The notes: a model not told the origin generated them from the sequence alone. Counted from the stretch's first letter, positions 5,226 through 40,571 are shown. The stretch: 41,586 bases of DNA from a virus (IMGVR_UViG_2778261450_000006:1-41586); one strand, 5' to 3'. A program made the numbers and translations.

Positions 5226-5390
5226 TTTGGGACCCTCGGTTTTTGGACCCTTCTTAATGGGTCCCATTCAGGGTGCCATAACTCGTAGTTCTCAGCAATT
5301 CTCACTGGACGACAATAGACGTAAAAAAGCCCGCAGAGCTTGTGCTGTGTGGGCTTAGTAGACTTCATTGAACTTCAAACAACTAAAAAG

Positions 5391-5435
5391 TGGTGGAGCT
5401 GGCGGGAGTTGAACCCGCGTCCGAAATTCCTACAT
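5391..5435. repeat. 45-bp direct repeat identical to the 3' end of ssrA (att core; prophage attR and original island att)
   Basis: tggtggagctggcgggagttgaacccgcgtccgaaattcctacat is identical to 40527-40571; flanks diverge on both sides. Confidence 0.9.
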
Positions 5436-5528
5436 ACCATTTTCACTATAACAAAAACATTAACTTGCGTTTAAAATCATCAAGTTAGTATTATCTTATG
5501 TTTGTCCGTTTTACTCATTTTTAATGCT

Positions 5529-5548
5529 CTGTCGCCAATCTGTCGCCA
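5529..5548 (+). repeat. Two direct copies of CTGTCGCCA 11 bp apart (candidate integrase arm-type sites)
   Basis: ctgtcgcca at 5529-5537 and 5540-5548; the same 9-10-mer recurs as an inverted pair at 40430-40468 near the other prophage end. Confidence 0.4.
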
Positions 5549-5550
5549 CA

Positions 5551-6201
5551 TTATCCGCTGCTTGAGTTGAAATCTGTGGGTTTACGGAGATTAGATCTTA
5601 TGGTTTTTTCAGCGATACGAATAGTCGAAAATTTATGCAGGTTCATCAGTGCTATACAAATCCCAAGTGCAAAAAAGTAGCTGGACATTCCTAATCTTTG
5701 CATATCAGTAAGTTTATTAATTTTCTCTAAAATATGTTGGGTTACTAATCCTTCGTATACAAAAGGTATGGAAGTTATAAAACCGCCAATAAAATAGAAT
5801 GTTAAGCTTATCAGCTTTATAGATTTTCTATATATCCAAAAGCGATATCTTTTTTTTGTCCATTTAAATATTTGTTTTTCACTACTAATAGAAATTAGTT
5901 TTTGACACTTGCTATAGTTATCAATGTCATTAACTGGATCGTTAACACCTAAAAGAATCTCTCTCTGTTCTGGAGTTAGGTTCTTATCTTTTGTTATTGC
6001 AGCAATACCATAATTATATGCAACTTTCTTGATTTTGGGATCTTCAGTATTCTTATATAGATTGTATGCAAACTCGCTAATGTTTTTGCGCGAGTTGAAA
6101 ATCTTATCTTTGGGGAAAACCCAGCCGGATCTTACCGCGAGCATCTGTATGATCGGGGTAATTATCGCGACAGAATACTTAATTATCTCGTTTATGTTCA
6201 T
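5551..6201 (-). CDS. AT-rich cargo protein with C-terminal transmembrane segments (hypothetical; moron between attR and int)
   Basis: 216-aa ORF, lysine-rich and AT-rich, hydrophobic segments LISLTFYFIGGFITSIPFVY and MSSYFFALGICIALM. Not part of the canonical P2/186 gene set at this position. Confidence 0.5.
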   Translation of the reverse strand: MNINEIIKYSVAIITPIIQMLAVRSGWVFPKDKIFNSRKNISEFAYNLYKNTEDPKIKKVAYNYGIAAITKDKNLTPEQREILLGVNDPVNDIDNYSKCQKLISISSEKQIFKWTKKRYRFWIYRKSIKLISLTFYFIGGFITSIPFVYEGLVTQHILEKINKLTDMQRLGMSSYFFALGICIALMNLHKFSTIRIAEKTIRSNLRKPTDFNSSSG

Positions 6202-6215
6202 GATCCATTGTTTAC

Positions 6216-7232
6216 TTAAATTAAGTTATAAAGAGGGTTTTTTGTTACTGCATCCTCCAGGTGGTCTGGAGAGAAGTGTGCATAAATCATCGTCATTTTA
6301 ATATCTGAGTGCCCTAAAATATCACGTAAAACGAGTATGTTCCCACCGTTCATCATAAAATGGCTGGCAAATGTATGGCGCAGGACGTGGGTGCATTGGC
6401 CTTCCGGTAGTTCAATACCGGCCCGTTTTACCGCCCGTTCAAAGGCTTTTCTGCATGGTGTGAATAATTTCCCTCGGTTTTTGGGTAGCTCGTTGTACAG
6501 ATCCTGAGATATCGGTACGGTACGGTTTTTTTTACCCTTGGTCTTTGTATAGGTAATCCGGTATTTCGATAGTTGATGGCCCTGCAGGTTTTCAGCTTCA
6601 CTCCAACGAGCACCGGTTGCTAGGCATATTTTTGCAATCATTAGCAGACTGGGGCTTTGAGAATCAGCACAGGCATCCAGCAGACGTTTAATTTCCTCCG
6701 GGGTTAGGAACGCCAGTTCACCCTCCGTAATTTTAAATGTTGGAAGCCCGGCAAGCGGGTTGGGGGCTGACCAGTGGCCCAGCTTTTTCAGTGTACCAAA
6801 AACAGATGATAGGTTGCGCTGTTCAAGGTTTACCGTGCGGGGCTTAACGGGTGACATGAACGAGCCGTCTTCATTTTGGACCTCCCCCTTTAATCTGGCT
6901 TCCCGATATTTTGTGAAATCACCTGCTGTCAGCTCAGAGGCGATGGGATCGCCTAGACCATTACAGATAATTCTAAGTTTCGCCATCAGGCGTTTGGGGT
7001 CTGCGAGTGTTTGACCATATAGGGAATACCACTGCTCAATCACTTCTGATAATCGCCGCCGATCTTCCTTCTCACCAAGCCATGGCTTTTTGTTTACTTC
7101 GTTCATGGTGAAGTTTTCGAATGCTATGGCTTCGCCTTTCGTGGCAAATTGCTTACGCACGCGCTTGCCATTGCGTCCATTGGGATAGCACTCACACAAC
7201 CATTTTCCGTTCGGCTGTTTTCTGATGGTCAT
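6216..7232 (-). CDS. int: P2/186-family tyrosine integrase
   Basis: 338 aa; GRNGKRVRKQF...AFE N-terminus and C-terminal LATGARWSEA ... HVLRHTFASHFMMNGG ... LGHSDIKMTMIYAHF catalytic region, as in P2 Int. Confidence 0.9.
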   Translation of the reverse strand: MTIRKQPNGKWLCECYPNGRNGKRVRKQFATKGEAIAFENFTMNEVNKKPWLGEKEDRRRLSEVIEQWYSLYGQTLADPKRLMAKLRIICNGLGDPIASELTAGDFTKYREARLKGEVQNEDGSFMSPVKPRTVNLEQRNLSSVFGTLKKLGHWSAPNPLAGLPTFKITEGELAFLTPEEIKRLLDACADSQSPSLLMIAKICLATGARWSEAENLQGHQLSKYRITYTKTKGKKNRTVPISQDLYNELPKNRGKLFTPCRKAFERAVKRAGIELPEGQCTHVLRHTFASHFMMNGGNILVLRDILGHSDIKMTMIYAHFSPDHLEDAVTKNPLYNLI

Positions 7233-7233
7233 A

Positions 7234-7866
7234 TCAAAGGCTCTTAATGATTTTCAGTGCACGGCCTACTACCTCAATGTCATCCAGGCCACACTCAAAC
7301 GATGAATCATCCTGATGCACTACTAATCTGTTTCCCGGGAGTCGAGTCAATTTAACAATGCTTTTTATCCCGTCGATATCGACTAACCACATACCATTCA
7401 CTGGTGGTGTTTGGTTGCGATCTATTAAATAAGAATCACCAGAAGTAGTCACCAGCAGTAGGTTGCTTGAGTCTGAGGGGAGTATGCTGCTATCAATGAT
7501 TGCTTTTCCAGCATCGACCAATAAACCACCGTTGAGAGTCGCCTTGTCAATTTCAGGAGATACTAGTTCAGAAAGAGGTACAACCTTGCTGGAGTTCACG
7601 GAATTGATATTTTTTTTAGGTTCAATGTTTGGACCTGGCTCCCCCTGTCCGGTGGTTAGCCACAGTAAAGAAACTCCTGTTTCCAAGGCGCACTGAATCA
7701 CCCACTCTGCAGGAAAACTATCTCTTAAGTATCTGTTTGCCATGGTGCTTTTTGATGCGCCTAAGTGATCGCAAAGTTGCTGTCTGGACTTGAAATCATA
7801 GGCTGCCATTAGTCTATGGATAGCTTCTCTTCCCCCTGTATTCTCTCCAGCCTTTACCTGTATCAT
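7234..7866 (-). CDS. cI: CI-type immunity repressor (186 CI-like)
   Basis: 210 aa directly upstream of int on the same strand, divergent from apl/cII; N-terminal motif QCALETGVSLLWLTTGQG resembles 186 CI. Confidence 0.8.
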   Translation of the reverse strand: MIQVKAGENTGGREAIHRLMAAYDFKSRQQLCDHLGASKSTMANRYLRDSFPAEWVIQCALETGVSLLWLTTGQGEPGPNIEPKKNINSVNSSKVVPLSELVSPEIDKATLNGGLLVDAGKAIIDSSILPSDSSNLLLVTTSGDSYLIDRNQTPPVNGMWLVDIDGIKSIVKLTRLPGNRLVVHQDDSSFECGLDDIEVVGRALKIIKSL

Positions 7867-13777: not shown

Positions 13778-13966
13778 ATGCAGGACTATTTTTTGGAGTC
13801 TTTGAAGCTCCAGCGCATTGATTTTTTTCTTAAGCTTGTAGCGGCTAGTGAGTGTAGTGATGAAGAGAAGGGGCTGGCCCTGCAGTGGGTTTCTGAACTG
13901 ACAGATGAACTCATGGCAAAAATCAGAACCCACGAATACAACCGCTCAATGGATGTCATCAGCTGA
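13778..13966 (+). CDS. Small SOS-controlled protein, candidate Tum-like antirepressor N-terminal module
   Basis: 62-aa ORF with AGGAGG RBS directly downstream of the LexA box; position corresponds to 186 tum. Confidence 0.45.
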   Translation: MQDYFLESLKLQRIDFFLKLVAASECSDEEKGLALQWVSELTDELMAKIRTHEYNRSMDVIS

Positions 13967-13976
13967 GGTGACTTTT

Positions 13977-14210
13977 ATGCGCATTGAAATAATGATCGAT
14001 AAAGAGCAGAAGATTAGCCAGTCTACCCTGGACGCTCTGGAGTCAGAGCTTTACCGCAACCTGCAACCCATCTATCCCAAGACAGCTATCCGCATCCGTA
14101 AAGGGTCGGCAAACGGCGTTGAGCTGAGTGGCTTAAAGCTTGATGAAGACAAAAAGCGGGTGATGGAAATTATGCAGCAGGTTTGGGAAGACGACAGCTG
14201 GCTGCACTAA
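13977..14210 (+). CDS. dinI: DinI-family protein
   Basis: MRIEIMIDKEQKISQSTLDALESEL...EDKKRVMEIMQQVWEDDSW resembles E. coli DinI; ATG 13977 with GAGGTG RBS (track ORF starts 13905). Confidence 0.75.
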   Translation: MRIEIMIDKEQKISQSTLDALESELYRNLQPIYPKTAIRIRKGSANGVELSGLKLDEDKKRVMEIMQQVWEDDSWLH

Positions 14211-15535: not shown

Positions 15536-16450
15536 ATGCCATACCAATTGGTAGAGCTTAGCCCCGTAGCTAACGATCTTGAACAGTTAGGAACCAAAGA
15601 GAAGTTTTGGTTCTATTTCTCCGATGACACTGTAAATTTGCAGTTGTTTAAGTACTCTAGGCCAGGTACTGGCGAGCATTGGTCTGAAAAGTGTGCTGCT
15701 GAGTTATGTCATTTGCTTAACATTCCACATGCTAGCTATGATTTGGCGCGATACAATGGTCGATTCGGTGTGGTGACTCAGAATATCATTCCATCTGGTT
15801 TCCGGATGGTAATGGGAAATGAAGTGCTTCACAGTTCGACATTCGATTATCCTGGGCCTTTACAAGCCGGGGAAAAGCCGGTAAGGGTCAGAGAACACAC
15901 TGTCACAAGGGTATTGGGTTGTTTGGATAGGGAATCTATCAAGCCTCCTCCGAGTGTATATGATCTAACCGGGCTAAATGCAGCAGATGTATTTTGTGGA
16001 TATTTGATGCTCGATGCACTTGTGAGTAATCAAGATCGCCATCATGAAAATTGGGCGATCATGCTTAACAATGAAACTGGTGAGCAGTTTTTGTGTCCAA
16101 CATACGATCATGCCGCTAGTTTAGGAAGGGAGATGTTAGATGATGAGCGTAACGAACGGCTTAATACTAAAGATAAAAATCGACAAATCCCATGTTTTGT
16201 AAGAAAAGCTCGCTCTGAGCTATTCAAAGCAAAAACTGATAAAAAGCCCTTGCTGACCGTTGAAGCATTTCAACATGCAGTTGAAGGGAGAGTTGCCGCT
16301 CGCGACCATTGGTTAGGTAAGTTGAGCGTTTTAACAGAAGATTCCATTACAGATGTGTTTAACCAAGTGCCTTCATCGTGTATATCCGACAGTGCACGTA
16401 GATTTGCAACGTTAATGGTAATGGAAAATCGCAGAAGGTTACTAGAATGA
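15536..16450 (+). CDS. HipA-like serine/threonine kinase core (lacks HipA N-terminal subdomain)
   Basis: P-loop-like GTKEKF near N-terminus and catalytic motif LDALVSNQDRHHENWAIM matching the HipA D-x-H-x-x-N region; YDHAASLG follows. AT-rich leader. Confidence 0.7.
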   Translation: MPYQLVELSPVANDLEQLGTKEKFWFYFSDDTVNLQLFKYSRPGTGEHWSEKCAAELCHLLNIPHASYDLARYNGRFGVVTQNIIPSGFRMVMGNEVLHSSTFDYPGPLQAGEKPVRVREHTVTRVLGCLDRESIKPPPSVYDLTGLNAADVFCGYLMLDALVSNQDRHHENWAIMLNNETGEQFLCPTYDHAASLGREMLDDERNERLNTKDKNRQIPCFVRKARSELFKAKTDKKPLLTVEAFQHAVEGRVAARDHWLGKLSVLTEDSITDVFNQVPSSCISDSARRFATLMVMENRRRLLE

Positions 16451-17187
16451 CTAATACAAACTCCGTTTACGTCGCATGGCAGGCACCAGATACCAGAGAC
16501 TGGCATGTTGTTGGTAACTTGCAAGAGCGCAAATCGGGGTATGTTTTCAGGTATACCAAAGGTGCTCTTAAATCTACTAAATTTACAAAGTTTAGCGGCA
16601 TGAGTGATGTTCGTGAAACTTATGTTTCGGAAGAATTGTTTCCTCTTTTTAAAAATCGCCTTTTATCACCGAGACGTCCAGAGTATCCGAGTTTCATTAA
16701 ATGGCTTGGATTTGAAGAAGATAAGGTAAATCCTATCGATATTCTTGCTCGCTCGGGAGGCTTACGAAGCACTGATCAGCTGCAGATTTTCAAAAAAATT
16801 GATGTTGATTCTGATGGTAACTTTGAGCATTTTTTCTTCTTACATGGACTTGGTTACTTAAATAGCTTAGCTAATGCTCGTGTATCTGAATTGAAACCGG
16901 GGCAAATTTTGCGTCTTTGCTTGGATCTTCAAAATGAATACGATGGGGATGCTGTTGTCGTTCGTGCAGATAAACCAGCTGAAATCGTTGGTTACTGCCC
17001 TAGGTATTTAAGTAATGATATCAAGAAGATGTTATTGGATGATCCAAAATCAATCACTTTAACGGTCGAAAAGATTAGCGATGATGCTCCTCATAACTAT
17101 CGGTTATTATGTAAATTATCAGGAGTACTAAGCCAAGCCTGTCAATCGACGCTGATTCCTCAGGATGAGTTTGAACCTATTGAGTAA
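16447..17187 (+). CDS. HIRAN-domain protein with N-terminal HipA-N/HipS-like region
   Basis: C-terminal LKPGQILRLCLDLQNEYDGDAVVVRADKPAEIVGYCPRYL matches the HIRAN signature; start overlaps kinase stop (ATGA). Confidence 0.65.
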   Translation: MTNTNSVYVAWQAPDTRDWHVVGNLQERKSGYVFRYTKGALKSTKFTKFSGMSDVRETYVSEELFPLFKNRLLSPRRPEYPSFIKWLGFEEDKVNPIDILARSGGLRSTDQLQIFKKIDVDSDGNFEHFFFLHGLGYLNSLANARVSELKPGQILRLCLDLQNEYDGDAVVVRADKPAEIVGYCPRYLSNDIKKMLLDDPKSITLTVEKISDDAPHNYRLLCKLSGVLSQACQSTLIPQDEFEPIE

Positions 17188-17221: not shown

Positions 17222-18262
17222 TTATGGGACTATATCTAGCGAGTAGGTATTAAACTGTATCGCCTCCTTGCCAAGCCAATCATTCATCTCCTGTAATCGC
17301 TTTTGTAGTGGCATTAGCTCATTTCGGACGAATACACGGCTTGCCTTTTCCACATCCCCAAACCCCCCAACATTATTCGGCATAATCCCCATCATTTGCG
17401 GCGGCACGCGGTGCGCTGCCATCATGTCATCCCGACTCACGTTCTTGATGTTAAGAAATTCATCCTTCGCCGCGACTTCTGACAATGGGATGATCTGAAG
17501 CCCGTCTTTTTTGCCGTTAGGTGAGTACATAAACAGGTTGCGGAAGTTGCCTGGACCTTTGGCGCTTTTCATCGCGTTGCGGAGGTTGTTCACATCCTCC
17601 TGATTCTGCGCGGCATCGGTCATGTACATGATGAAGCCTGCATGGCTGCCGTTAATGTAATACTTACGGCGGAACAACGTGGCGGACTCGTTGAGCAGGG
17701 CTGACGGAATGGCAGAAAGATAACCGGGCAGGCCGTAGATCTCCTGGTTGATATCCGGTTCCATCAGATGAAAGATGCTGCCTTTCGTGAACTGATACGG
17801 CTGCGTAGTCATGCCGTATTGCACAAACCAGTAGGTATCCAGGTCTAACCCGCGTCGGGTGTATTTTGCCAGAGCAGGCTCAAGGGCGATAACTTCACCG
17901 AAGCGGTTCGTGCGTTTCTCCAGGTAGGCGTTACCAAATACCAGATAGTCCTGCACAAAACGTGAAAAAGCCTGCTGGCTGAGCAGCGGGTGGGGGATGT
18001 AGGTACTGGTCAGAATGTTGCATTTCACCGCAATTGGTGAACTGTGATGCACGGCGGCGCGGAAGGTGCGCGCCAGTCCGTCAAAGCTTACTGGCGGCTC
18101 ATACCAGCGATCTGTCTGTACGCATTCCACATAGTCCAGTAGTTCGCGGCGGTCCAGAACAGGAACGGGATCACCGAAGCTGAATGCTTCGGCTGTAGTT
18201 TGACTTTTATGCTGGATCTGGTTCGTCGACGCAGCGCGGTTCTTCTTACTCTTTCCCATCAA
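17222..18262 (-). CDS. Q: Portal protein (P2 gpQ family)
   Basis: 346 aa, size and position (leftward, paired with P, divergent from O) match P2 Q. Confidence 0.9.
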   Translation of the reverse strand: MMGKSKKNRAASTNQIQHKSQTTAEAFSFGDPVPVLDRRELLDYVECVQTDRWYEPPVSFDGLARTFRAAVHHSSPIAVKCNILTSTYIPHPLLSQQAFSRFVQDYLVFGNAYLEKRTNRFGEVIALEPALAKYTRRGLDLDTYWFVQYGMTTQPYQFTKGSIFHLMEPDINQEIYGLPGYLSAIPSALLNESATLFRRKYYINGSHAGFIMYMTDAAQNQEDVNNLRNAMKSAKGPGNFRNLFMYSPNGKKDGLQIIPLSEVAAKDEFLNIKNVSRDDMMAAHRVPPQMMGIMPNNVGGFGDVEKASRVFVRNELMPLQKRLQEMNDWLGKEAIQFNTYSLDIVP

Positions 18263-20025
18263 AAAATCTCCACAATATTACTGGTATTGGCGGACTCGCC
18301 CTGCAGTGGTTCGTTAAACAGTGCGTGCATTGTTGCCCAGGCCAGATCGGCGTGGCTGGCTTCTTCGCTGCGGCTGGCTTCATAGGTTGGGCGGTTGCCA
18401 CTGGCGGTGGTTGCGCGACGGATTGCCATGAATGACTGCGCAATGTCGGTGTGCCCGGCGTCAAACTCCAGACGGCGGTGGCTGATAATGTCGTAGGCCT
18501 TGAGTACCAGGGCGTTTTTAACGTTGGGGTTGTAGACAAACTCCCGGACGGCAGGAAAGAACGCTTTCACGTTCTCGTAAACCCCGTGACCAACGCCGGT
18601 TGAGTCGATACCGATATAAGTCACGTTGTACTGTTCGGTAAGTTTTTTGATGGCGTCAGCCTGGGCGCGGAAGTCCATCCCGCGCCACTGGTGACGCTCA
18701 AGAATGCGGAACTTACCACCCGGCACGGCTGGCGGTGCCACCACCACGCATCCAGCGCTGTCGCCGTTTTGCGTACCTTTTGCCGGGTCATAACCGATCC
18801 ACACTTCGCGCCAGCCAAACGGGCGCAGCGCCAGTGCATGAAAGTCGGTCCAGACTTCCCAACTGTCCACCATGCACGCCTGCAGCTCGCTGAGCGGAAA
18901 CACGGACGCGAGATCGTCCACAAACTCGCACATCAGCAGGTTCTGGTATTCGTCTGGGCTGTACTCCATGCGTAGCTGGTCGAGGTCGAACAGGTTACAG
19001 CCGCCGCGCACCGCATCTTCCACGGTGACTATCTGGCGGTATTGCCCGTCTGCGCACAGCAGGCCGGGGGCCAGATTGCTGTGGGACAGGTCGATGTCCA
19101 CCTTATCGGCTTTGTTGCGCCCACGGTTGAACAGCGCACCGGACCAGAACGGATAAGCACTGTGTGTCAGACTGGATGGCGTGGAAAAATAGGTTTGTCG
19201 CCATTTTTTGTGAATAGCCATACCGGAAGCCACTTTGCGCAGCTCCTGGAATTTCGGTATCCAGAAATATTCATCCAGATACAGGTTGCCGTGGTAACTC
19301 TGGGCCGTGCGGGCATTGGTGCCGAGGAAGTAAAGCGTGGCCCCGTTAGGAAGCACCATCGGATCGCCTTTCAGCTCCACCTCCACTTCTTTGGCAAAGT
19401 CGATGATGTACTGTTTAAAGACGTGGGCCTGAGCCTTGCTGGCAGAAAGGAAAATCTGGTTACGCCCGGTCAGCAGGGCGTCAATCAGGGCTTCACGGGC
19501 AAATTAAAAGGTCGCGCCGATCTGGCGTGACTTCAGCAGGTTGCGGATGCGGTTGGTTTTTCCGGCTTCCCACCAGTGGCGCTGGTAGTTGAACATAGAG
19601 GAATGGAAGATTTCTTCCAGTTTCTCAATCTGTTCATCGGTGAAAACATTCTTTTCCGGCTGACGACGTGGGCCTTTGTTGCGGTTGGCAACGTTAGGGT
19701 TTAAGTCGGCTTCGTTGCCGCCATTGTTAAACTTGCCGATCCGCGCGTGGCGCTCAGACTGGCGTGCCAGCAGGTCAATTTCTTTGAAATCTTTCCCTTC
19801 TTTGTGCTCCTTCATAATGAGCTGGCAGTAGCGTGCGGCGGTGGTGAGCTGCATCTGATCCAGCGGCCCATAGTCACCCCACTTGTCGCGTTTTTTCCAG
19901 CTGTGAACGGTTGCAACTTTCTCGCCCAGCATTTCAGCAATGCGGGCGACGCGGTATCCCTGAAAGTACAGCAGCATGGCCTGCCGACGGGGATCGAGAT
20001 CTGCGGGTGTCAGTGTGGTGTTCAT
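18259..20025 (-). pseudogene. P: Terminase ATPase (large) subunit gpP interrupted by an in-frame TAA
   Basis: ORFs 19504-20025 and 18259-19386 are in the same frame; a single TAA at 19504-19506 (minus strand) is the only stop, and the 39 codons between it and the next Met (FAREALIDALLTGRNQIFLSASKAQAHVFKQYIIDFAKEV) continue the protein. Combined length 588 codons. Confidence 0.8.
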
Positions 20026-25613: not shown

Positions 25614-26600
25614 TTACTCTTTGTAAATTCGATCTGGCTCGTTGTACTCTATTTCTCTCAGTCGACCATTTTTAATGGTGAAATTACCTTTTTCTGATTT
25701 AAATTCCCCACCACATTTACAAGGCTTGTTATCAGAAAGAGTGTAGTTTTTTAGTATTAGTTCATCATCGTTGTCAAAGGTGGGGATTATTTTTTTAGTT
25801 TCAGCGCATTGCGTGCACTTAACTTGCAATTCCGGGAGTGTGGTACAAGCTGTAAGGCTCAGTTCGACATTCTCTGGAACAATGTAATATCCTAGCAATG
25901 GTGTCCCACGACTTTCTGAAACACCTTTGTATGTATTGGTTATGCCTCCAATAAATGCAAGGATTTCATCATACGCTTGAGTATTACGCATTGTTACCCA
26001 GCAATCTCGATCTTCATAACTATACTCACGACCTGCAACGCAAATTGCTGTAACGTAACGAAAGTCTTCTTTGTATATTTTTTTATACCTTTCGGCTTCA
26101 GTAATTCCATTTGGTGATAAGTCACTACTTAGAGCAAATATTACCGAGCGAAGTTTCTCTATTTTGTGTTGGATTAGTTTGCCTGATTCATCTTTTATTC
26201 CAGGTAAGTAACCGAATTTCTCATTAAGTTCTTTTGCACTTGAGTGTGCAGAGCTGAGTTCCGATGAACTTAATGTGGTTTTTACCTCAATGGTATATAG
26301 AACTGATTCTATTGGGAATAACCCTGTGGCACCATCGATTAATATCGGAGGGAGTATTGATTTATTGTAAATAATAATATCTATTTGAGGTGATAACTTT
26401 CCTGAATACTGTTCAATGATTTGCCCTGTGCCAATGCCAACATCTGCGGGCAAAAGAGGTCGAAATAGTTGACTTAATAATATTTCTAGAACAGCTCCCT
26501 TAACACCCTGGTGGGAAAATCCTGCAGCACTTTTGGCTTGAGCAATCGCCGATTCGACCTTCCCTCTAAGTAAAGCCTGATACTGGTTCTTATTTTTCAT
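25614..26600 (-). CDS. Cargo protein: PD-(D/E)xK-like nuclease fold with C-terminal zinc-ribbon (candidate anti-phage defence gene)
   Basis: 328-aa antisense ORF between S and V, strongly AT-rich against a GC-rich late operon. Motifs PQIDIIIYN ... ESVLYTIEVKT (D ... E-x-K) and C-terminal CTQCAETKK ... CKCGG cysteine cluster. Confidence 0.6.
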   Translation of the reverse strand: MKNKNQYQALLRGKVESAIAQAKSAAGFSHQGVKGAVLEILLSQLFRPLLPADVGIGTGQIIEQYSGKLSPQIDIIIYNKSILPPILIDGATGLFPIESVLYTIEVKTTLSSSELSSAHSSAKELNEKFGYLPGIKDESGKLIQHKIEKLRSVIFALSSDLSPNGITEAERYKKIYKEDFRYVTAICVAGREYSYEDRDCWVTMRNTQAYDEILAFIGGITNTYKGVSESRGTPLLGYYIVPENVELSLTACTTLPELQVKCTQCAETKKIIPTFDNDDELILKNYTLSDNKPCKCGGEFKSEKGNFTIKNGRLREIEYNEPDRIYKE

Positions 26601-28544: not shown

Positions 28545-29142
28545 TCTGCTGCCACCGGGTTCAACACCACTGGAGCGCCGACTGGCGCAAACCTGCAGCG
28601 GGATTTCTGATCTGCAGGTGCCGCTTCGTGACTTGTGGAATCCGGCAACCTGCCCGGTCAGTTTCCTGCCTTATCTCGCCTGGGCGTTCTCTGTGGATCG
28701 CTGGGACGAGGGCTGGACAGAAAGCGTCAAGCGCCAGGTGGTGAAGGATGCTTTTTATATTCATCAGCATAAAGGGACCACCAGTGCCGTGCGTCGGGTG
28801 GTGGAGCCGTTCGGCTTTCTGATCCGCATTATTGAGTGGTGGCAGACCGGAGAGACACCGGGCACGTTTCGTCTGGATATCGGCGTGCAGGACCAGGGCA
28901 TCACTGAAGATACCTATCTGGAACTTGAGCGACTGATAAGCGATGCCAAACCATGTAGCCGTCACATGATCGGCATGTCCATCAACCTGCAGACCAGCGG
29001 CCCGCATTGGGTGGGAGCCGCCAGCTATCTTGGCGAAGAAATCACGATCTATCCGTATATCAACGAAACAATTATTTCCGGCGGCACCGCGCATGAAGGC
29101 GGGGCGGTCCATGTTATTGACACAATGAGAGTGAATCCATGA
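28537..29142 (+). CDS. I: Baseplate/tail protein I (P2 gpI family)
   Basis: 201 aa, overlaps J stop and H start. Confidence 0.85.
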   Translation: MNSLLPPGSTPLERRLAQTCSGISDLQVPLRDLWNPATCPVSFLPYLAWAFSVDRWDEGWTESVKRQVVKDAFYIHQHKGTTSAVRRVVEPFGFLIRIIEWWQTGETPGTFRLDIGVQDQGITEDTYLELERLISDAKPCSRHMIGMSINLQTSGPHWVGAASYLGEEITIYPYINETIISGGTAHEGGAVHVIDTMRVNP

Positions 29143-30644
29143 GCACAAAATTTTATACCCTGCTGACGGATATTGGCGCGGCGAAACTTGCCAGCGCCGC
29201 CGCGCTCGGTGTGCCTTTAAAAATTACCCATATGGCGGTCGGCGATGGCGGCGGAACATTGCCAACGCCGGACGCAAAGCAGACAGCATTAGTAAATGAG
29301 AAACGCCGGGCTGCGCTGAATATGCTCTATATCGACCCGCAGAACAGCAGCCAGATTATTGCCGAACAGGTGATCCCTGAAAACGAGGGCGGTTGGTGGA
29401 TACGTGAAGTGGGCTTGTTTGATGAGTCCGGGGCATTGATTGCCGTGGGCAACTGCCCGGAAAGCTATAAGCCACAACTGGCTGAAGGCAGCGGGCGCAC
29501 CCAGACCGTGCGCATGGTGCTGATTACCAGCAGCACGGACAATATCACACTGAAAATCGACCCTGCCGTCGTGCTGGCAACCCGCAAGTATGTGGATGAC
29601 AAAGCACTGGAGTTGAAGGTGTACGTGGATGACCTGATGGCAAAACATCTTGCCGCACCGGACCCGCATTCACAGTATGCACCCAAAGAAAGTCCGACGT
29701 TTACCGGGACACCCAAAGCGCCAACGCCAGCAGCAGGGAATAACACCACGCAGATTGCGACCACCGCGTTTGTTCAGGCGGCTCTGACGGCTCTTATTAA
29801 TGGTGCGCCAGCCACGCTGGACACGCTGAAAGAAATAGCCGCAGCCATTAACAATGATCCGAAATTCAGTACCACCATTAACAATGCACTGGCACTGAAA
29901 GCGCCGCTGTCGAGTCCGGCACTCACCGGAACGCCAACCGCACCTACTGCGGCACAGTCGGTCAACAATACACAGATTGCCACCACGGCATTTGTGAAAT
30001 CGGCGATTGCGGCAATGGTGGGTTCTGCACCTGCGGCACTGGATACACTGAACGAACTGGCGGCGGCGCTGGGGAATGATCCGAACTTTGCCACGACAAT
30101 GCTTAATGCGCTGGCAGGTAAACAACCGCTGGACAATACGCTGACTAATTTGAGTGGAAAGGATGTCGCTGGTCTTCTCGCATACCTTGGTTTGGGAGAA
30201 GGTTCTCCAGCTATTGGCGTTCCGTTCTTCTGGCCGTCCGCTGCAATGCCAAATACTGTAATCGACAGCTGGTCCAGTATGGTGTTTTTGAAGTTCAACG
30301 GCGCGAAATTCTCTGCCACTGATTATCCTGTGCTGGCGAAAGTGTTTCCTTCGCTGGTATTACCTGAAGCCCGCGGTGATTTCATTCGTATCTGGGATGA
30401 CGGGCGAGGTGCAGATGGTGGTCGTGAATTATTAAGCTGGCAGGCAGCTACAAACTTTTCTCAGTTTGCCGGGAATATAGGCGAAGGTGCGGGACACGCA
30501 ATTAACTTTCATGATGGCATCGCCGGAAATCAGCCAGGATTTTCACGATTTAATTTCACCAGTAACTCTGTGGGTGATGGTGTGAATTTTGTTGCTGTCA
30601 GACCGCGAAATATTGCATTTAACTTTCTGGTGAGGGCTAAATAA
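29139..30644 (+). CDS. H: Tail fibre protein H (constant N-terminal region plus currently expressed variable C-terminal cassette)
   Basis: 501 aa with repeated tail-fibre motifs (TQIATTAFV ... NDPKFSTT; NTQIATTAFVKSAIAA ... NDPNFATT). The recombination site encoding LGLGE lies at 30175-30200 inside the gene. Confidence 0.9.
   Translation: MSTKFYTLLTDIGAAKLASAAALGVPLKITHMAVGDGGGTLPTPDAKQTALVNEKRRAALNMLYIDPQNSSQIIAEQVIPENEGGWWIREVGLFDESGALIAVGNCPESYKPQLAEGSGRTQTVRMVLITSSTDNITLKIDPAVVLATRKYVDDKALELKVYVDDLMAKHLAAPDPHSQYAPKESPTFTGTPKAPTPAAGNNTTQIATTAFVQAALTALINGAPATLDTLKEIAAAINNDPKFSTTINNALALKAPLSSPALTGTPTAPTAAQSVNNTQIATTAFVKSAIAAMVGSAPAALDTLNELAAALGNDPNFATTMLNALAGKQPLDNTLTNLSGKDVAGLLAYLGLGEGSPAIGVPFFWPSAAMPNTVIDSWSSMVFLKFNGAKFSATDYPVLAKVFPSLVLPEARGDFIRIWDDGRGADGGRELLSWQAATNFSQFAGNIGEGAGHAINFHDGIAGNQPGFSRFNFTSNSVGDGVNFVAVRPRNIAFNFLVRAK
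30175..30200. repeat. Invertase crossover site (hix/gix/cix-like 26-bp site) inside tail fibre gene H
   Basis: ttctcgcatacc-TT-ggtttgggagaa; the 14 bp ttggtttgggagaa is repeated in inverted orientation at 31980-31993. Confidence 0.6.
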
Positions 30645-31237
30645 TGAAACCTGTTTTTGATGAAAATGGGCTGGCTACAGTGCCGGGCGATATGCGTTGT
30701 TTTTATTATGATGCTGAAACATCTGAGTATACGGGCTGGTCTGATGAATATATTAATACTGGCGTAAGTATGCCCGCCTGTTCCACTGGTATTGACCCTG
30801 GCGAAAACATTCCGGGAAAAGTGGCAGTATTTACGGGTAAGGGATGGAGCCATGAAGAAGACCATCGCAATGAGACTGTTTACTCAACAGAAAATGGCGC
30901 AGCTGTTACAGTGGATTATATCGGTGCCATCAAAGACGGTTATGTCACGCTTTCACCGTTAACGCCATACGATAAATGGGATGGTGAGAAATGGGTGACG
31001 GATACCGAGGCACAGCATAGCGCCGCAGTAGACGCGGCAGAAGCACAACGTCAGTCACTGATTGATACTGTAATGGCTTCCATTAGTCTGATTCAACTGA
31101 AATTGCAGGCCGGACGGAAACTGACGCAGGCAGAAACAACCCGACTTAACGCCGTGCTGGATTACATTGACGCGGTGACGGTAACAGATACCAGCACCGC
31201 GCCGGATATCATCTGGCCTGAACTGCCGGAGGCGTAG
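30644..31237 (+). CDS. G: Tail fibre assembly protein (P2 gpG/Tfa family), currently expressed copy
   Basis: 197 aa directly after H; C-terminal motif LDYIDAVTVTDTSTAPDIIWPELP shared with the inverted copy. Confidence 0.8.
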   Translation: MKPVFDENGLATVPGDMRCFYYDAETSEYTGWSDEYINTGVSMPACSTGIDPGENIPGKVAVFTGKGWSHEEDHRNETVYSTENGAAVTVDYIGAIKDGYVTLSPLTPYDKWDGEKWVTDTEAQHSAAVDAAEAQRQSLIDTVMASISLIQLKLQAGRKLTQAETTRLNAVLDYIDAVTVTDTSTAPDIIWPELPEA

Positions 31238-31628
31238 GCCATTCAATATCTGGCGCACTGGAAGTATCGACCAGCTCCAGTGCGTCCAGATAATCCAGCC
31301 ACAAATTATATTGCGCCAGTTCCTCACCTTTCAGACGACCAATAGCCGCTTTACCAGGCCATTGCCTGCTGTTCATGTGCTCGTTGGCTTCATTAATAAG
31401 TTTTCCTTTTTTCAACTCTGCCAATGCAATAAGGTTTTCTTTTGATAAAGGTGGTTGCTCTGTCAAAACCGGATATCCCTCCTGATTGCTGACTATTTTC
31501 ATGCCATTATCCTGACCATCCAGTAGTGACAGCCATTCATCCGTGGTTATCTCAACAGCATCTGAAGGTGCTTTATTTAAATCGGTAAAAAAACCATTTT
31601 CTTTTTGTGAATAGAAGTATCTGTCCAT
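31209..31628 (-). CDS. Alternative tail fibre assembly protein (inverted copy)
   Basis: 139 aa on opposite strand; C-terminus LWLDYLDALELVDTSSAPDIEWPTP parallels the + strand Tfa; 3' ends overlap convergently. Confidence 0.75.
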   Translation of the reverse strand: MDRYFYSQKENGFFTDLNKAPSDAVEITTDEWLSLLDGQDNGMKIVSNQEGYPVLTEQPPLSKENLIALAELKKGKLINEANEHMNSRQWPGKAAIGRLKGEELAQYNLWLDYLDALELVDTSSAPDIEWPTPPAVQAR

Positions 31629-31631
31629 TTA

Positions 31632-31991
31632 TCAATCTCCAAAAGCAATCCAGTAAGCAAAAGGATTTATTCCTTGCTCAGTCACAGATGACATCAGGGA
31701 AAATTGCGATGGTGAAACAGGTAATGCTGCAAAACTAACCATTGTTGACACACCTGACCGTGCATTATCGTACGATGCAACAACACAATAATTGGTATTG
31801 CTGAAAGATATCGGCAGGGTGATATTTACAGGTGAGCCTAATGGCCCTGATGCTGATATTCCCATTTGAATGATGGTTCCATCAGGCAATTTTCTCCAGC
31901 GATTAGAACTCGGATTTCTTTTCCAGGCTGACATATCCGGTATCTGATTTTCTCCTGTGCCTACATCCCTTTTCGCCGCTTCTCCCAAACC
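31632..31991 (-). CDS. Alternative tail-fibre C-terminal cassette (promoterless; fused to H constant region after inversion)
   Basis: Minus-strand frame reads ...GLGEAAKRDVGTGENQIPDMSAWKRN... from the crossover site. No independent start expected; the Met in the track ORF (to 32033) lies beyond the site. Confidence 0.6.
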   Translation of the reverse strand, partial: GLGEAAKRDVGTGENQIPDMSAWKRNPSSNRWRKLPDGTIIQMGISASGPLGSPVNITLPISFSNTNYCVVASYDNARSGVSTMVSFAALPVSPSQFSLMSSVTEQGINPFAYWIAFGD

Positions 31992-32005
31992 AACGTTTAT
32001 GAAAA
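31980..32005. repeat. Invertase crossover site (inverted partner of 30175-30200)
   Basis: ttctcccaaacc-AA-cgtttatgaaaa; reverse complement shares ttggtttgggagaa with the H-internal site. Confidence 0.6.
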
Positions 32006-32060
32006 TGCAGAGATAACGGCTAACTGGCATCATCTCCGGTTTTTATTCAGGGGGATGATC

Positions 32061-32627
32061 ATGCTTATTGGCTATGTACGCGTGTCAACAAATGACCAGA
32101 ACACCGATTTGCAACGTAATGCACTGAACTGCGCGGGATGTGAGCGGATTTTTGAGGATAAAATCAGTGGCACTAAGTCCGACAGACCGGGGCTGAAAAA
32201 GCTGCTCAGGACACTATCGGCAGGAGACACGCTGGTTGTCTGGAAGCTGGACAGGTTGGGGCGCAGTATGCGGCATCTTGTTACGCTGATAGAGGAGTTG
32301 CGCCAGCGTGGTGTGAATTTCCGAAGCCTGACTGACAGTATTGATACCAGTACCCCAATGGGCCGTTTCTTTTTTCATGTCATGGGTGCCCTGGCTGAAA
32401 TGGAACGCGAACTGATAGTTGAACGTACCAGGGCAGGGCTGGCTGCAGCTCGTGCCAAAGGCAGAGTAGGTGGACGCCGTCCTAAGTTGACCACCGAACA
32501 GTGGGCACAGATTGGGCGTTTACTCGAGGCCGGAGAATCAAGACAGCGTATTGCACTGATTTTTGATGTGGGTGTTTCCACAATTTATAGAAAATTTCCG
32601 GCAAATAAGAGTAATGAATCCCCCTGA
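32061..32627 (+). CDS. Serine DNA invertase (Hin/Gin/Cin/Pin family)
   Basis: MLIGYVRVSTNDQNTDLQ with catalytic Ser in YVRVST, resolvase core and C-terminal HTH (GVSTIYRKF). ATG 32061 with GGGGG RBS (track ORF starts 32055). Confidence 0.9.
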   Translation: MLIGYVRVSTNDQNTDLQRNALNCAGCERIFEDKISGTKSDRPGLKKLLRTLSAGDTLVVWKLDRLGRSMRHLVTLIEELRQRGVNFRSLTDSIDTSTPMGRFFFHVMGALAEMERELIVERTRAGLAAARAKGRVGGRRPKLTTEQWAQIGRLLEAGESRQRIALIFDVGVSTIYRKFPANKSNESP

Positions 32628-32675
32628 ATCAGCATTATTTTGATTATCCCTGCAAGTAGACAAATACCGTCATTT

Positions 32676-32693
32676 TGTGTGAATAACGGTACA
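32676..32693. promoter_or_regulatory. Candidate Ogr-dependent late promoter element (TGT-N12-ACA) upstream of FI
   Basis: tgtgtgaataacggtaca ~85 bp upstream of the FI start. Confidence 0.45.
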
Positions 32694-32769
32694 ACTGCGC
32701 TTAGCTGTTTGTCAGGCACAATCACTTCAACATAGGGCGAAGCCTAATCCAATCAGGAGGTTCGCCACT

Positions 32770-33942
32770 ATGGCTCAGGATTACCACCACGGGGTGCGCG
32801 TTGTTGAAGTCAACGAAGGCACCCGATCCATTACCACGGTGAGCACCGCCATCGTGGGCATGGTCTGCACGGGCGATGATGCCGATGCAAAAATGTTTCC
32901 TCTTAACAAACCTGTGCTGATCACTGATGTGCTGACTGCCAGCGGTAAAGCGGGTGAGTCCGGCACGCTGGCCCGTTCGCTGGATGCCATCGCTGACCAG
33001 GCAAAACCCGTGACCGTTGTTGTGCGTGTGCCGCAGGGTGAAACGGAAGAAGAAACCACGACCAATATCATCGGCGCAGTGACTGCTGAAGGTAAAAAAA
33101 CAGGCATGAAAGCTCTGTTATCTGCCCAGTCACAGCTCGGCGTTAAACCGCGCATTCTCGGCGTGCCAGGTCACGATAACAAAGCCGTTGCGACTGAGTT
33201 GCTGAGCGTGGCGCAAAGCCTGCGTGGGTTTGCTTACCTGTCAGCGTATGGCTGCAAGACGGTACAGGAGGCGATCACTTACCGTGAAAACTTCAGCCAG
33301 CGCGAAGGAATGCTGATCTGGCCCGACTTTACTGGCTGGGACACGGTGCTGAATGCCGAAGCAACGGCATATGCCACCGCCCGTGCACTTGGTCTGCGTG
33401 CCAAAATTGATGAGCAGACCGGGTGGCACAAAAGCCTGTCCAACGTGGGCGTGAACGGTGTCACCGGAATTTCTGCAGATGTGTTCTGGGATCTGCAGGA
33501 CCCGGCAACCGATGCAGGTCTGCTGAACCAGAACGACGTCACCACGCTTGTGCGTAAAGACGGTTTCCGCTTCTGGGGTTCCCGCTGTCTGAGCGATGAT
33601 CCGCTTTTTGCCTTCGAAAACTACACCCGCACGGCGCAGGTGCTGACGGACACAATGGCAGAAGCACACATGTGGGCGGTGGATAAACCGCTTAACCCGT
33701 CGCTGGCCCGCGACATTATCGAAGGTATCCGCGCCAAAATACGCAGCCTGGTCAGTCAGGGCTATCTCATTGGTGGTGATTGCTGGCTGGATGAGTCGGT
33801 GAACGACAAAGACACGCTGAAAGCCGGAAAACTCACCATCGACTATGACTACACGCCAGTGCCGCCACTTGAAAATCTGATGCTGCGCCAGCGCATCACC
33901 GATCAGTACCTGGTGAATTTCGCCAGCCAGGTCAGCGCGTAA
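32770..33942 (+). CDS. FI: Contractile tail sheath protein (P2 gpFI family)
   Basis: 390 aa with AGGAGG RBS. Confidence 0.9.
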
Positions 33943-39901: not shown

Positions 39902-39922
39902 AACCTGCTACGGCAGGTTTTT
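39902..39922. terminator. Rho-independent terminator after ogr (possibly bidirectional)
   Basis: aacctgc-tacg-gcaggtt stem-loop followed by TTTATT; also closes the convergent minus-strand gene. Confidence 0.6.
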
Positions 39923-40403
39923 ATTCATCTGGGATCTCACCCGTTTCAAGAAAATGTATAAAGCCAGGCTCATCTATGATGATAGTGCCTTTCATCCTGG
40001 CTGCCGATACTTTTGATGGGCCTGCATTGTAACCGCAACAGAGCATCTGAAGGTTTTGGGTTACAGATGTTCTTACCGTTAATCCTTGTTCATTCGCCTT
40101 ATCAACCAACCTTTCTTTATCTGCTTTCTTAAATCCGGTGAAACACACATCGAATGTATTTTTTTTCGGACCTGACTGCTTAGTGAGATGTGAGTAGTTT
40201 TCGGGGAGGAATGACGCGCATTCCTGAATGGCTTGTTCTTGTGAATCGTATTGTTTAAGAATGCGGTCTTTTCGGAAGGTTTTTATTCGATCGGTGTTCT
40301 TACAAATGCCCTGTATGTGATTTTCGCTATAACTGATGCTCTGTATTGAGTGAACACCGATACGACCATTTGCATTGATGTAAACAAAGTGAAGTTCTTC
40401 CAT
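39921..40403 (-). CDS. Cargo protein with WYL-like N-terminal region and BRCT-like C-terminal domain
   Basis: 160 aa, AT-rich, between ogr and attL. N-terminal RIKTFRKDRI resembles the WYL signature; C-terminal CFTGFKKADKERLVDKANEQGLTV ... GTIIIDEPGFIHFL resembles a BRCT fold. Confidence 0.5.
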   Translation of the reverse strand: MEELHFVYINANGRIGVHSIQSISYSENHIQGICKNTDRIKTFRKDRILKQYDSQEQAIQECASFLPENYSHLTKQSGPKKNTFDVCFTGFKKADKERLVDKANEQGLTVRTSVTQNLQMLCCGYNAGPSKVSAARMKGTIIIDEPGFIHFLETGEIPDE

Positions 40404-40526: not shown

Positions 40527-40571
40527 TGGTGGAGCTGGCGGGAGTTGAACCCGCGTCCGAAATTCCTACAT
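40527..40571. repeat. 45-bp att core (3' end of ssrA), direct repeat of 5391-5435
   Basis: Exact 45/45 identity; it is the 3'-terminal 45 nt of the tmRNA gene. Confidence 0.9.

What the first reader, a model, noticed from the sequence alone, without database searches (positions are those of the whole stretch)
30175..32627. Invertible tail-fibre cassette with a Hin/Gin-family invertase occupying the G-to-FI position
Two 26-bp crossover-type sites in inverted orientation share the 14-bp core ttggtttgggagaa. One lies inside gene H at the codons for LGLGE; the other is adjacent to the serine invertase gene. Inversion of ~1.8 kb would fuse the H constant region to an alternative C-terminal cassette (minus-strand frame GLGEAAKRDVGTGENQ...) and place the alternative assembly gene downstream, switching host range as in Mu G and P1 C segments.
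Basis: partly seen in the sequence, partly recalled or inferred. Interest (0 to 1): 0.55.

Follow-up and report, generated by a model that had tools for sequence, protein, structure and literature searches.

The report
Invertible tail-fibre switch in P2-like prophage
This is an ordinary, well-known phage device: a Pin/Gin-type enzyme flips a 1.8-kb DNA segment, so a P2-like E. coli prophage can make either of two tail-fibre tips, which probably gives it two host ranges.

Summary
Two 26-bp sites, 30175-30200 and 31980-32005, lie in inverted orientation. They share the exact 14-mer TTGGTTTGGGAGAA and the same 2-bp core. The left site sits on the LGLGE codons of the P2 gene-H homologue. The right site sits 81 bp upstream of a 188-aa serine invertase that is 72% identical to Mu Gin and 83.5% to e14 PinE.

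An in-silico flip keeps the reading frame. It produces a 469-aa alternative fibre followed directly by its own assembly chaperone.

Inversion is supported by comparison with relatives. The flipped isomer exists full-length in two E. coli chromosomes at 96.6% identity. In strain 13TMH22 the chromosomal prophage and its excised circular copy have identical flanks and carry the segment in opposite orientations, joined exactly at these sites. The same 14-mer is the published, experimentally verified inversion repeat of the e14 P segment.

The arrangement is already annotated in relatives such as phage Cartapus, whose invertase is identical, and is described in the literature for Fels-2 and for P2-like prophages of enteropathogenic E. 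coli (EPEC). So this is a known system.

Three things remain open. The Fis enhancer is only tentatively located, at 32082-32145. Inversion was not seen in this copy. The prophage's terminase gene carries a nonsense codon.

The parts
29139..30644 (+). Tail-fibre gene, P2 gene-H homologue, 501 aa. The constant part runs 29139 to about 30188. The currently expressed variable C-terminal cassette Sv runs 30189-30644.
   Evidence: ORF. Pfam Phage_tail_fib N-terminal domain, E = 1.3e-65. The C-terminal 151 aa match the C-terminal ends of PHROG tail-fibre families (phrog_3100, 2.5e-52).
30175..30200 (+). Left 26-bp crossover site, TTCTCGCATACC-TT-GGTTTGGGAGAA, inside gene H on the LGLGE codons. The core TT is at 30187-30188.
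   Evidence: The inner arm plus core equals the published e14 P-segment inversion repeat TTGGTTTGGGAGAAGG (PMC12529663).
30187..31993 (.). Invertible segment of about 1.8 kb, measured core to core.
   Evidence: Homology to E. coli WS3294A switches strand exactly here: window 30184-32005 aligns inverted while both flanks align direct. The same breakpoints appear in 13TMH22.
30644..31237 (+). Tail-fibre assembly chaperone U (197 aa), cognate to Sv. Its start overlaps the H stop codon.
   Evidence: Pfam Caudo_TAP 2.7e-27. phrog_105 1.7e-84.
31209..31628 (-). Alternative assembly chaperone U' (139 aa). It is silent in this orientation. Its 3' end overlaps that of U by 29 bp.
   Evidence: Pfam Caudo_TAP 2.3e-26. 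phrog_188 1.5e-53. After the flip it starts 3 nt past the H' stop codon.
31632..31991 (-). Silent alternative fibre C-terminal cassette Sv' (GLGEAAKRDVGTGENQ...). The ORF's extension up to 32033 is only read-through across the site, not a real N-terminus.
   Evidence: Pfam Gp53-like_C 1.7e-13. phrog_2557 and phrog_1396, C-terminal ends. The in-frame fusion gives a 469-aa H', the same length as the annotated fibre of WS3294A.
31980..32005 (+). Right 26-bp crossover site, TTCTCCCAAACC-AA-CGTTTATGAAAA. The core AA is at 31992-31993.
   Evidence: It is identical over all 26 bp to the right site of the e14 P segment in K-12. Related loci hold a copy of the 14-mer at the same 81-bp offset from the invertase ATG.
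32061..32627 (+). Serine DNA invertase of the Pin/Gin/Cin/Hin (Din) family, 188 aa.
   Evidence: Pfam Resolvase 2.3e-53 and HTH_7 1.5e-15. Gin structures 3UJ3 and 4M6F at E = 8e-93, with the catalytic Ser9 in place. It is 100% identical to phage Cartapus gp23, 98.9% to 13TMH22, 83.5% to PinE and 72% to Gin.
32082..32145 (.). Candidate recombinational (Fis) enhancer inside the 5' part of the invertase gene. It has Fis-like 15-mers at each end: GTGTCAACAAATGAC (32082-32096) and GCGCGGGATGTGAGC (32131-32145). This assignment is tentative.
   Evidence: G-N13-C 15-mers occupy the same gene positions, +29 and +78, in Mu gin. The span is 64 bp and starts about 97 bp from the right site centre, close to the 65-bp Hin enhancer that sits about 100 bp from hix (PMC3798978). 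Synonymous diversity is reduced in codons 8-29, and codons 9-13 never vary across 76 sequences. Coding constraint and 5'-end effects are not excluded.

Best explanation
The region is a Pin/Gin-type site-specific inversion switch for the tail fibre of a P2-like (Peduoviridae, Elveevirus-like) prophage. The prophage is integrated at the 3' end of ssrA in an E. coli chromosome.

**Proposed mechanism.** The 188-aa serine invertase (32061-32627) binds as dimers to the two 26-bp sites. One site lies inside the fibre gene H and the other just upstream of the invertase's own gene. By analogy with Hin and Gin, the two sites are brought together with a Fis-bound enhancer in the 5' part of the invertase gene. 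The enzyme cuts both sites at the central TT/AA dinucleotide, rotates one half of the complex by 180 degrees and religates, which inverts about 1.8 kb.

**What each orientation expresses.**
- Orientation in the window: late transcription gives H constant region plus Sv (501 aa) and chaperone U.
- Flipped orientation: it gives H constant region plus Sv' (469 aa, gp53-like tip) and chaperone U'.

A lysogen population would therefore release particles with two different receptor-binding tips, as a bet-hedging device for host range.

**Shown here:** the anatomy, preservation of reading frame, family membership of the invertase, identity of the sites with experimentally proven e14 sites, and the existence of both isomers in near-identical relatives.

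**Inferred:** activity of this particular copy, Fis and enhancer dependence, and the effect on host range.
For: - **Sites and frame.**
- **Invertase family and catalytic serine.**
- **Site architecture.** It is the same as Mu gixL/gixR and e14. The repeat TTGGTTTGGGAGAA is the one at which e14 inversion was shown experimentally (PMC12529663).
- **The flipped isomer exists.** The in-silico flipped sequence (3101 bp) matches E. coli WS3294A and SA31-1 in a single piece, with 100% coverage and 96.6% identity. No complete E. coli genome covers the window's own orientation in full.
- **Both isomers in one strain.** In strain 13TMH22 the chromosomal prophage and the circular 36-kb copy are 100% identical on both flanks. 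Between the two sites they are inverted, with reciprocal junction sequences. Its invertase differs from the window's at 2 of 188 residues.
- **Recurrence.** 54 of 80 viral contigs with a related invertase hold two copies of the 14-mer, nearly all as a + copy upstream of a - copy. The + copy lies 1.1-2.0 kb upstream (one case 3.5 kb) and the - copy sits at a fixed 81 bp from the ATG.
- **Cassettes.** Both cassettes and both chaperones match tail-fibre tip and assembly families.
- **Literature.** Phase-variable inversions were measured in P2-like prophages of EPEC (PMC4272514). A Fels-2 tail-fibre inversion sits next to fin (PMC7953296). Invertases with adjacent inversions are noted in the P2 Z/fun hotspot (bioRxiv 2024.10.15.618418).
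Against: - Only one orientation is visible in this single sequence.
- The enhancer assignment is weak. Fis sites are degenerate, and the candidate sites overlap the codons of the conserved catalytic motif.
- No convincing sigma-70 promoter for the invertase was found.
- No receptor is known for either cassette, and neither has a solved homologue.
- The prophage's terminase large-subunit gene carries an in-frame TAA at 19504-19506. This copy may therefore be unable to package DNA, which would make the host-range benefit moot for it.
Confidence: 0.9

Rival explanations
1. The switch is a frozen relic. The sites and the invertase look intact, but in this copy the segment no longer inverts, for example because the invertase is not expressed or the enhancer is impaired. 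The prophage would then be decaying.
For: The terminase large subunit has a nonsense codon at 19504-19506, so the prophage may already be defective. No clear invertase promoter was found. Only one orientation is seen here.
Against: The invertase is 100% identical to that of an isolated phage, Cartapus. It differs at 2 of 188 residues from the one in 13TMH22, where both isomers coexist. Both sites are intact, and the right one is identical to the e14 site. All four cassette and chaperone reading frames are open. The terminase lesion is a single substitution in an otherwise 587/589-identical protein, so any decay is very recent.
Confidence: 0.06
2. The switch serves the host rather than the phage. 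In a packaging-defective prophage, one orientation would give a fibre-derived protein that blocks receptors or otherwise protects against other phages, as reported for e14 StfE2 with PinQ. Alternatively the invertase mainly acts in trans on other resident segments.
For: The crossover sites are the same as those of e14, where inversion confers T2 resistance (PMC12529663). The terminase carries a nonsense codon. The prophage also carries candidate defence cargo: PDC-M03 at 15536-17187 and a NucC-like PD-(D/E)xK protein at 25614-26600.
Against: Here both cassettes fuse to a full-length P2-type fibre whose N-terminal domain (Pfam Phage_tail_fib) is intact, within a complete tail operon V-W-J-I-H ... 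FI-FII-E-T-U-D. The same module occurs in isolated, viable phages. No evidence for a host phenotype was obtained.
Confidence: 0.04
3. The inverted repeat is a chance match, and the invertase is an unrelated passenger gene.
For: None beyond the shortness of the repeat.
Against: A second exact 14-mer is expected about 3e-4 times in the window. The repeat sits precisely at the homology and strand breakpoints seen in relatives. It recurs at a fixed offset from the invertase in dozens of loci. The reading frame is preserved across it.
Confidence: 0.005

Closest known systems
P segment / PinE of the E. coli cryptic prophage e14
   Same: The crossover sites are the same: the right site is identical over 26 bp, and the left site shares the 14-mer plus most of the outer arm. 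The invertase is 83.5% identical. The layout is the same: fibre constant part | Sv-U | U'-Sv' | invertase. Segment size is similar, 1797 bp against about 1.8 kb. The chaperone genes are partly homologous, 90% over 421 nt.
   Different: e14 is a defective lambdoid element with a short StfP fibre, whereas here the constant part is a full P2-type gene H. The variable cassettes are mostly different. A module 97.7% identical from the crossover site onward does occur in an unrelated prophage with an e14-like tail, in E. coli ECONIH2.
G segment / Gin of phage Mu, and by my knowledge the C segment / Cin of phage P1
   Same: The gene logic is the same: Sc | Sv U | U' Sv' | invertase. The sites have the same 12-2-12 architecture with an AAACC..GGTTT centre. 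The invertase is 72% identical to Gin, and the Gin crystal structures are the top hits. G-N13-C 15-mers sit at the same positions in the 5' part of both genes.
   Different: The Mu G segment is about 3 kb with much longer variable parts. The core dinucleotide and outer arms differ. The cassettes are unrelated at the DNA level: only the invertase gene aligns. The phage backbone is unrelated.
Invertible tail-fibre regions of other P2-like prophages and phages: Fels-2 fin, the EPEC E2348/69 P2-like prophages, Escherichia phage Cartapus, E. coli 13TMH22
   Same: The position is the same, between the fibre and assembly genes and the sheath gene FI, which is the P2 Z/fun hotspot. The invertase is identical or nearly so. 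Inversion has been observed or inferred in these elements.
   Different: The combination of cassettes differs from element to element. Cartapus carries two gp53-like cassettes. One EPEC prophage has three repeats and four isomers, whereas the window has only two sites.

Membership tests
Din family of serine DNA invertases (Gin/Cin/Pin/Hin) | Small serine recombinase of about 190 aa, with an N-terminal catalytic domain carrying the nucleophilic serine (Ser9 in Gin) and a C-terminal helix-turn-helix | tested here: met
   Pfam Resolvase 2.3e-53 and HTH_7 1.5e-15. Full-length alignment to Gin 3UJ3/4M6F at E = 8e-93, with MLIGYVRVSTNDQ conserved. It is 72% identical to Gin and 83.5% to PinE.
Din family of serine DNA invertases (Gin/Cin/Pin/Hin) | Two 26-bp recombination sites in inverted orientation, each made of two imperfect 12-bp half-sites around a 2-bp core, with the core identical in both sites | tested here: met
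   TTCTCGCATACC-TT-GGTTTGGGAGAA and (reverse complement) TTTTCATAAACG-TT-GGTTTGGGAGAA. The architecture matches Mu gix and e14.
Din family of serine DNA invertases (Gin/Cin/Pin/Hin) | A Fis-bound recombinational enhancer in cis, natively in the 5' part of the invertase gene about 100 bp from one site | tested here: inconclusive
   Fis-like 15-mers lie at 32082-32096 and 32131-32145. Together they span 64 bp and start about 97 bp from the site centre. The same positions are occupied in gin. Synonymous diversity is reduced in codons 8-29, but not uniquely so when one sequence per 95% cluster is used. Fis binding cannot be tested with these tools.
Din family of serine DNA invertases (Gin/Cin/Pin/Hin) | The segment between the sites actually inverts | tested here: inconclusive
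   This copy cannot be tested from one sequence. For near-identical relatives the feature is met: the flipped isomer exists in WS3294A and SA31-1, and both isomers exist in a single assembly of 13TMH22 with reciprocal junctions.
Invertible tail-fibre (host-range) segments of the Mu G / P1 C / e14 P type | One site lies inside the fibre gene, so inversion swaps in-frame C-terminal cassettes, and each cassette is followed by its own assembly chaperone | tested here: met
   H of 501 aa against H' of 469 aa, both open. Two convergent Caudo_TAP genes. Both cassettes match the C-terminal ends of fibre families.
Invertible tail-fibre (host-range) segments of the Mu G / P1 C / e14 P type | The two orientations confer different adsorption or host range | not testable with these tools
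   The cassettes are unrelated to each other: the Sv cassette matches tail-fibre and tail-collar PHROG families, whereas Sv' is gp53-like. No receptor assignment is possible.
P2-like phages (Peduoviridae) | P2 gene order V-W-J-I-H-G ... FI-FII-E-T-U-D, with integrase and CI-type repressor, and close DNA similarity to classified members | tested here: met
   ORF order. Pfam matches for fibre, sheath, integrase and CI. 95.7% identity over 79% to Escherichia phage Cartapus, an Elveevirus. A 45-bp att repeat lies at 5391-5435 and 40527-40571, the latter at the 3' end of ssrA.

The most novel reading that the evidence does not exclude
The prophage appears packaging-defective because of the terminase nonsense codon, yet it keeps a pristine switch whose sites are the same as those of e14. 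The invertase and segment might therefore be retained for the host's benefit. One possibility is cross-talk, in which this invertase flips the e14 P segment and PinE or PinQ flip this one. Another is that one isomer produces a fibre-derived receptor-blocking or tailocin-type function, similar to the recently reported PinQ/StfE2 defence.
Probability: 0.08. Interest if true: 0.4.

Novelty: already known. Interest (0 to 1): 0.1.

Why it matters
It matters little for discovery. The element is a textbook Din-family host-range switch. Its invertase is identical to one already annotated in a RefSeq phage, and its sites are the experimentally proven e14 repeats.

It has three practical uses:
- The silent cassette ORF 31632-32033 and the fibre should be annotated as parts of one phase-variable gene.
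- Assemblies of such prophages can legitimately differ by this inversion.
- The same segment-plus-invertase module, bounded exactly at the crossover site, sits in unrelated prophage backbones. This illustrates how receptor-binding modules move between phages.

Tried and rejected
- **Native orientation.** I searched for the window's own orientation in complete E. coli genomes. No full-length match exists; the best is 83% coverage in two pieces. The informative hits came from the flipped query.
- **Receptors.** PDB sequence searches with the two cassettes gave nothing significant. The best hit was T4 gp37 at E = 0.022, so no receptor could be inferred.
- **Promoters and terminators.** The scan of 29000-32900 found fewer promoter-like sites than in shuffled sequence, and none for the invertase.
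- **Literature on the enhancer.** I tried to recover the Hin and Gin enhancer sequences. A sequence-word search found only unrelated papers. Two PMC ids were not held, and one search was malformed. The Fis-site positions therefore rest on comparison with Mu gin, the general description in PMC3798978, and my own recollection of the Hin sites.
- **First Fis scan.** It suggested sites at +104 and +151. I dropped these in favour of +29 and +78, which are conserved in position with gin and fit the stated distance of about 100 bp and span of 65 bp.
- **Extra sites.** I looked for more crossover sites that would indicate a multiple-inversion system of the kind seen in one EPEC P2-like prophage. None exist in the window.
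Full report
**Context**

The window is an E. coli chromosomal region. Its left 5.5 kb is 99.9% identical to many E. coli genomes. It carries a P2-like prophage of about 35 kb bounded by a 45-bp direct repeat at 5391-5435 and 40527-40571. The second repeat copy is the 3' end of the tmRNA gene ssrA.

The prophage has the P2 tail gene order V, W, J, I, H and then FI, FII, E, T, U, D. It also has an integrase and a CI repressor. It is 95.7% identical over 79% of its length to Escherichia phage Cartapus (Peduoviridae, Elveevirus).

**The observation**

The repeat finder reports arms at 30175-30201 and 31979-32005 (pair I2). Written as 26-bp sites they are:
- TTCTCGCATACC-TT-GGTTTGGGAGAA (left)
- TTCTCCCAAACC-AA-CGTTTATGAAAA (right)

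Each is two 12-bp half-sites around a 2-bp core. The cores read identically once one site is inverted. The shared 14-mer occurs only at these two places in the window, on opposite strands, even when two mismatches are allowed.

The left site lies on the LGLGE codons of the 501-aa gene-H homologue. The right one lies 81 bp upstream of the invertase start at 32061.

**Anatomy**

Between the sites lie four coding units:

| Unit | Coordinates | Strand | Notes |
|---|---|---|---|
| Sv, the expressed C-terminal 151 aa of H | 30189-30644 | + | matches tail-fibre and tail-collar PHROG families |
| Chaperone U, 197 aa | 30644-31237 | + | Caudo_TAP |
| Chaperone U', 139 aa | 31209-31628 | - | Caudo_TAP; overlaps U by 29 bp |
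| Sv', promoterless cassette | 31632-31991 | - | gp53-like C-terminal domain |

Flipping the segment in silico at the core dinucleotides joins H codon 349 to Sv' in frame. This gives a 469-aa protein, and U' starts 3 nt after its stop. That length equals the fibre annotated in E. coli WS3294A, which carries the flipped arrangement.

**The invertase**

The 188-aa product has the resolvase catalytic domain and the HTH_7 domain. It aligns end to end with the Gin crystal-structure sequences at E = 8e-93. The motif MLIGYVRVSTNDQ, which includes the catalytic serine, is conserved.

Its identity to relatives:

| Relative | Identity |
|---|---|
| Cartapus gp23 | 100% |
| Klebsiella phage KP12 | 99.5% |
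| E. coli 13TMH22 and WS3294A | 98.9% |
| e14 PinE | 83.5% |
| Mu Gin | 72% |

**Is it more than a look-alike?**

Three independent comparisons say yes.

1. *The sites are proven sites.* The right site is identical over 26 bp to the right site of the e14 P segment, and the left shares the inner arm and core. Kirigo et al. located e14 inversion experimentally at the repeats TTGGTTTGGGAGAAGG and CCTTCTCCCAAACCAA (PMC12529663).
2. *The flipped isomer exists.* The flipped version of window 29600-32700 matches E. coli WS3294A and SA31-1 over 100% of its length in a single piece at 96.6% identity. Pairwise alignment shows the flanks running direct and window 30184-32005 running inverted.
3. *Both isomers coexist in one strain.* In the assembly of E. 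coli 13TMH22, the chromosomal prophage and a 36-kb circular copy deposited as a plasmid are 100% identical on both flanks. Between the two sites they carry the segment in opposite orientations. The outer half-sites are unchanged and the junction sequences are exactly reciprocal. This is the signature of conservative site-specific inversion within one culture, by an invertase that differs from the window's at 2 of 188 residues.

The architecture is also widespread. Among 80 viral contigs with a related invertase, 54 hold two copies of the 14-mer, nearly all as a + copy upstream of a - copy. The minus copy sits at a fixed 81 bp from the ATG. Most of the remainder are truncated.

**Modularity**

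Relatives with the same H constant region and invertase mostly carry other cassettes. Conversely, the window's segment plus invertase recurs at 97.7% identity in an unrelated prophage with an e14-like tail in E. coli ECONIH2. There the homology begins exactly at the crossover site, window 30176. The window's Sv cassette is found in both the expressed and the silent position in different contigs. All of this is the known behaviour of such modules.

**Enhancer**

Din-family invertases need a Fis-bound enhancer. For Hin this is a 65-bp element with a Fis site at each end, about 100 bp from one hix site (PMC3798978).

In the window, G-N13-C 15-mers lie at 32082-32096 and 32131-32145. They span 64 bp and start about 97 bp from the right-site centre. 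Mu gin has matching 15-mers at the same gene positions.

Across 76 distinct invertase sequences (68-100% nucleotide identity to the window's gene), synonymous diversity is 0.18 in codons 8-29 against a gene mean of 0.26. Codons 9-13 never vary. With one sequence per 95% cluster, one downstream stretch of the gene is equally low, and 5'-end effects are not excluded. I therefore regard the enhancer as plausible but not demonstrated.

**Prior knowledge**

- Inversions in P2-like prophages of EPEC E2348/69 were detected and quantified by sequencing (PMC4272514).
- A Fels-2 tail-fibre inversion next to fin has been described (PMC7953296).
- A survey of P2-like phages notes that the Z/fun hotspot often holds a DNA invertase with inverted neighbouring genes (bioRxiv 2024.10.15.618418).
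- Public records already annotate the same layout: tail fibre, two assembly proteins, DNA invertase.

The finding is therefore already known.

**Caveats**

Inversion of this very copy, Fis dependence and a host-range effect are inferred. The prophage's terminase large-subunit gene carries TAA where an intact homologue has TAT at codon 174, and the two proteins are otherwise 587/589 identical. If that stop is real, this copy cannot package DNA. The switch would then be a very recently orphaned but structurally intact device.

**Verdict**

Novelty is nil and interest is low.

Noticed in passing
window 18259-20025 (- strand); stop codon at 19504-19506: The terminase large-subunit gene (P2 gpP homologue) has a single in-frame TAA at codon 174, where the intact homologue in CP019275.1 has TAT (Tyr). 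The rest of the protein is 587/589 identical. The prophage may be packaging-defective, or this is a sequencing error.
   Followed up: yes
window 15536-16450 and 16447-17187 (+): A two-gene cargo sits between replication gene A and portal gene Q, which is the P2 old/tin hotspot. It matches the PADLOC candidate defence system PDC-M03 (A: 2e-122, with weak HipA_C similarity; B: 3e-93, with a HIRAN domain). A DinI-like ORF lies at 13905-14210.
   Followed up: partly
window 25614-26600 (-): A 328-aa DUF6602 protein with PD-(D/E)xK and NucC-like nuclease matches (PADLOC PD_DExK, 6.6e-32) is inserted between the S and V tail genes, which is the P2 orf30 position. In E. coli WS3294A a P-loop NTPase-fold gene lies directly upstream of V in the same orientation. 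This suggests a further cargo hotspot.
   Followed up: partly
window 5391-5435 and 40527-40571; also 3996-5267 (-): A perfect 45-bp direct repeat equal to the 3' end of ssrA bounds the prophage (attL/attR). Immediately outside the left repeat lies a second, P4-type integrase followed by island genes. The P2-like prophage therefore appears to have inserted in tandem between ssrA and a pre-existing ssrA-associated island.
   Followed up: partly
L008 (E. coli ECONIH2, NZ_CP014667.1) 5012-7439: The same invertible segment (97.7% nucleotide identity) together with a pinE-type invertase gene sits in an unrelated prophage (baseplate J/gp47, DUF2612, short 264-aa fibre). Homology to the window starts exactly at the crossover site. 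The module is exchanged between phage backbones at the site.
   Followed up: partly
L024, L027, L054 (IMG/VR contigs): A few related contigs carry three or four copies of the 14-bp arm. These may be multiple-inversion systems like the one in an EPEC P2-like prophage, or two adjacent elements. I did not examine them.
   Followed up: no
window 39921-40403 (-): A 160-aa ORF lies between gene D and the right attachment site, with only a sub-threshold BRCT match (E = 9e-4). Its function is unknown.
   Followed up: no
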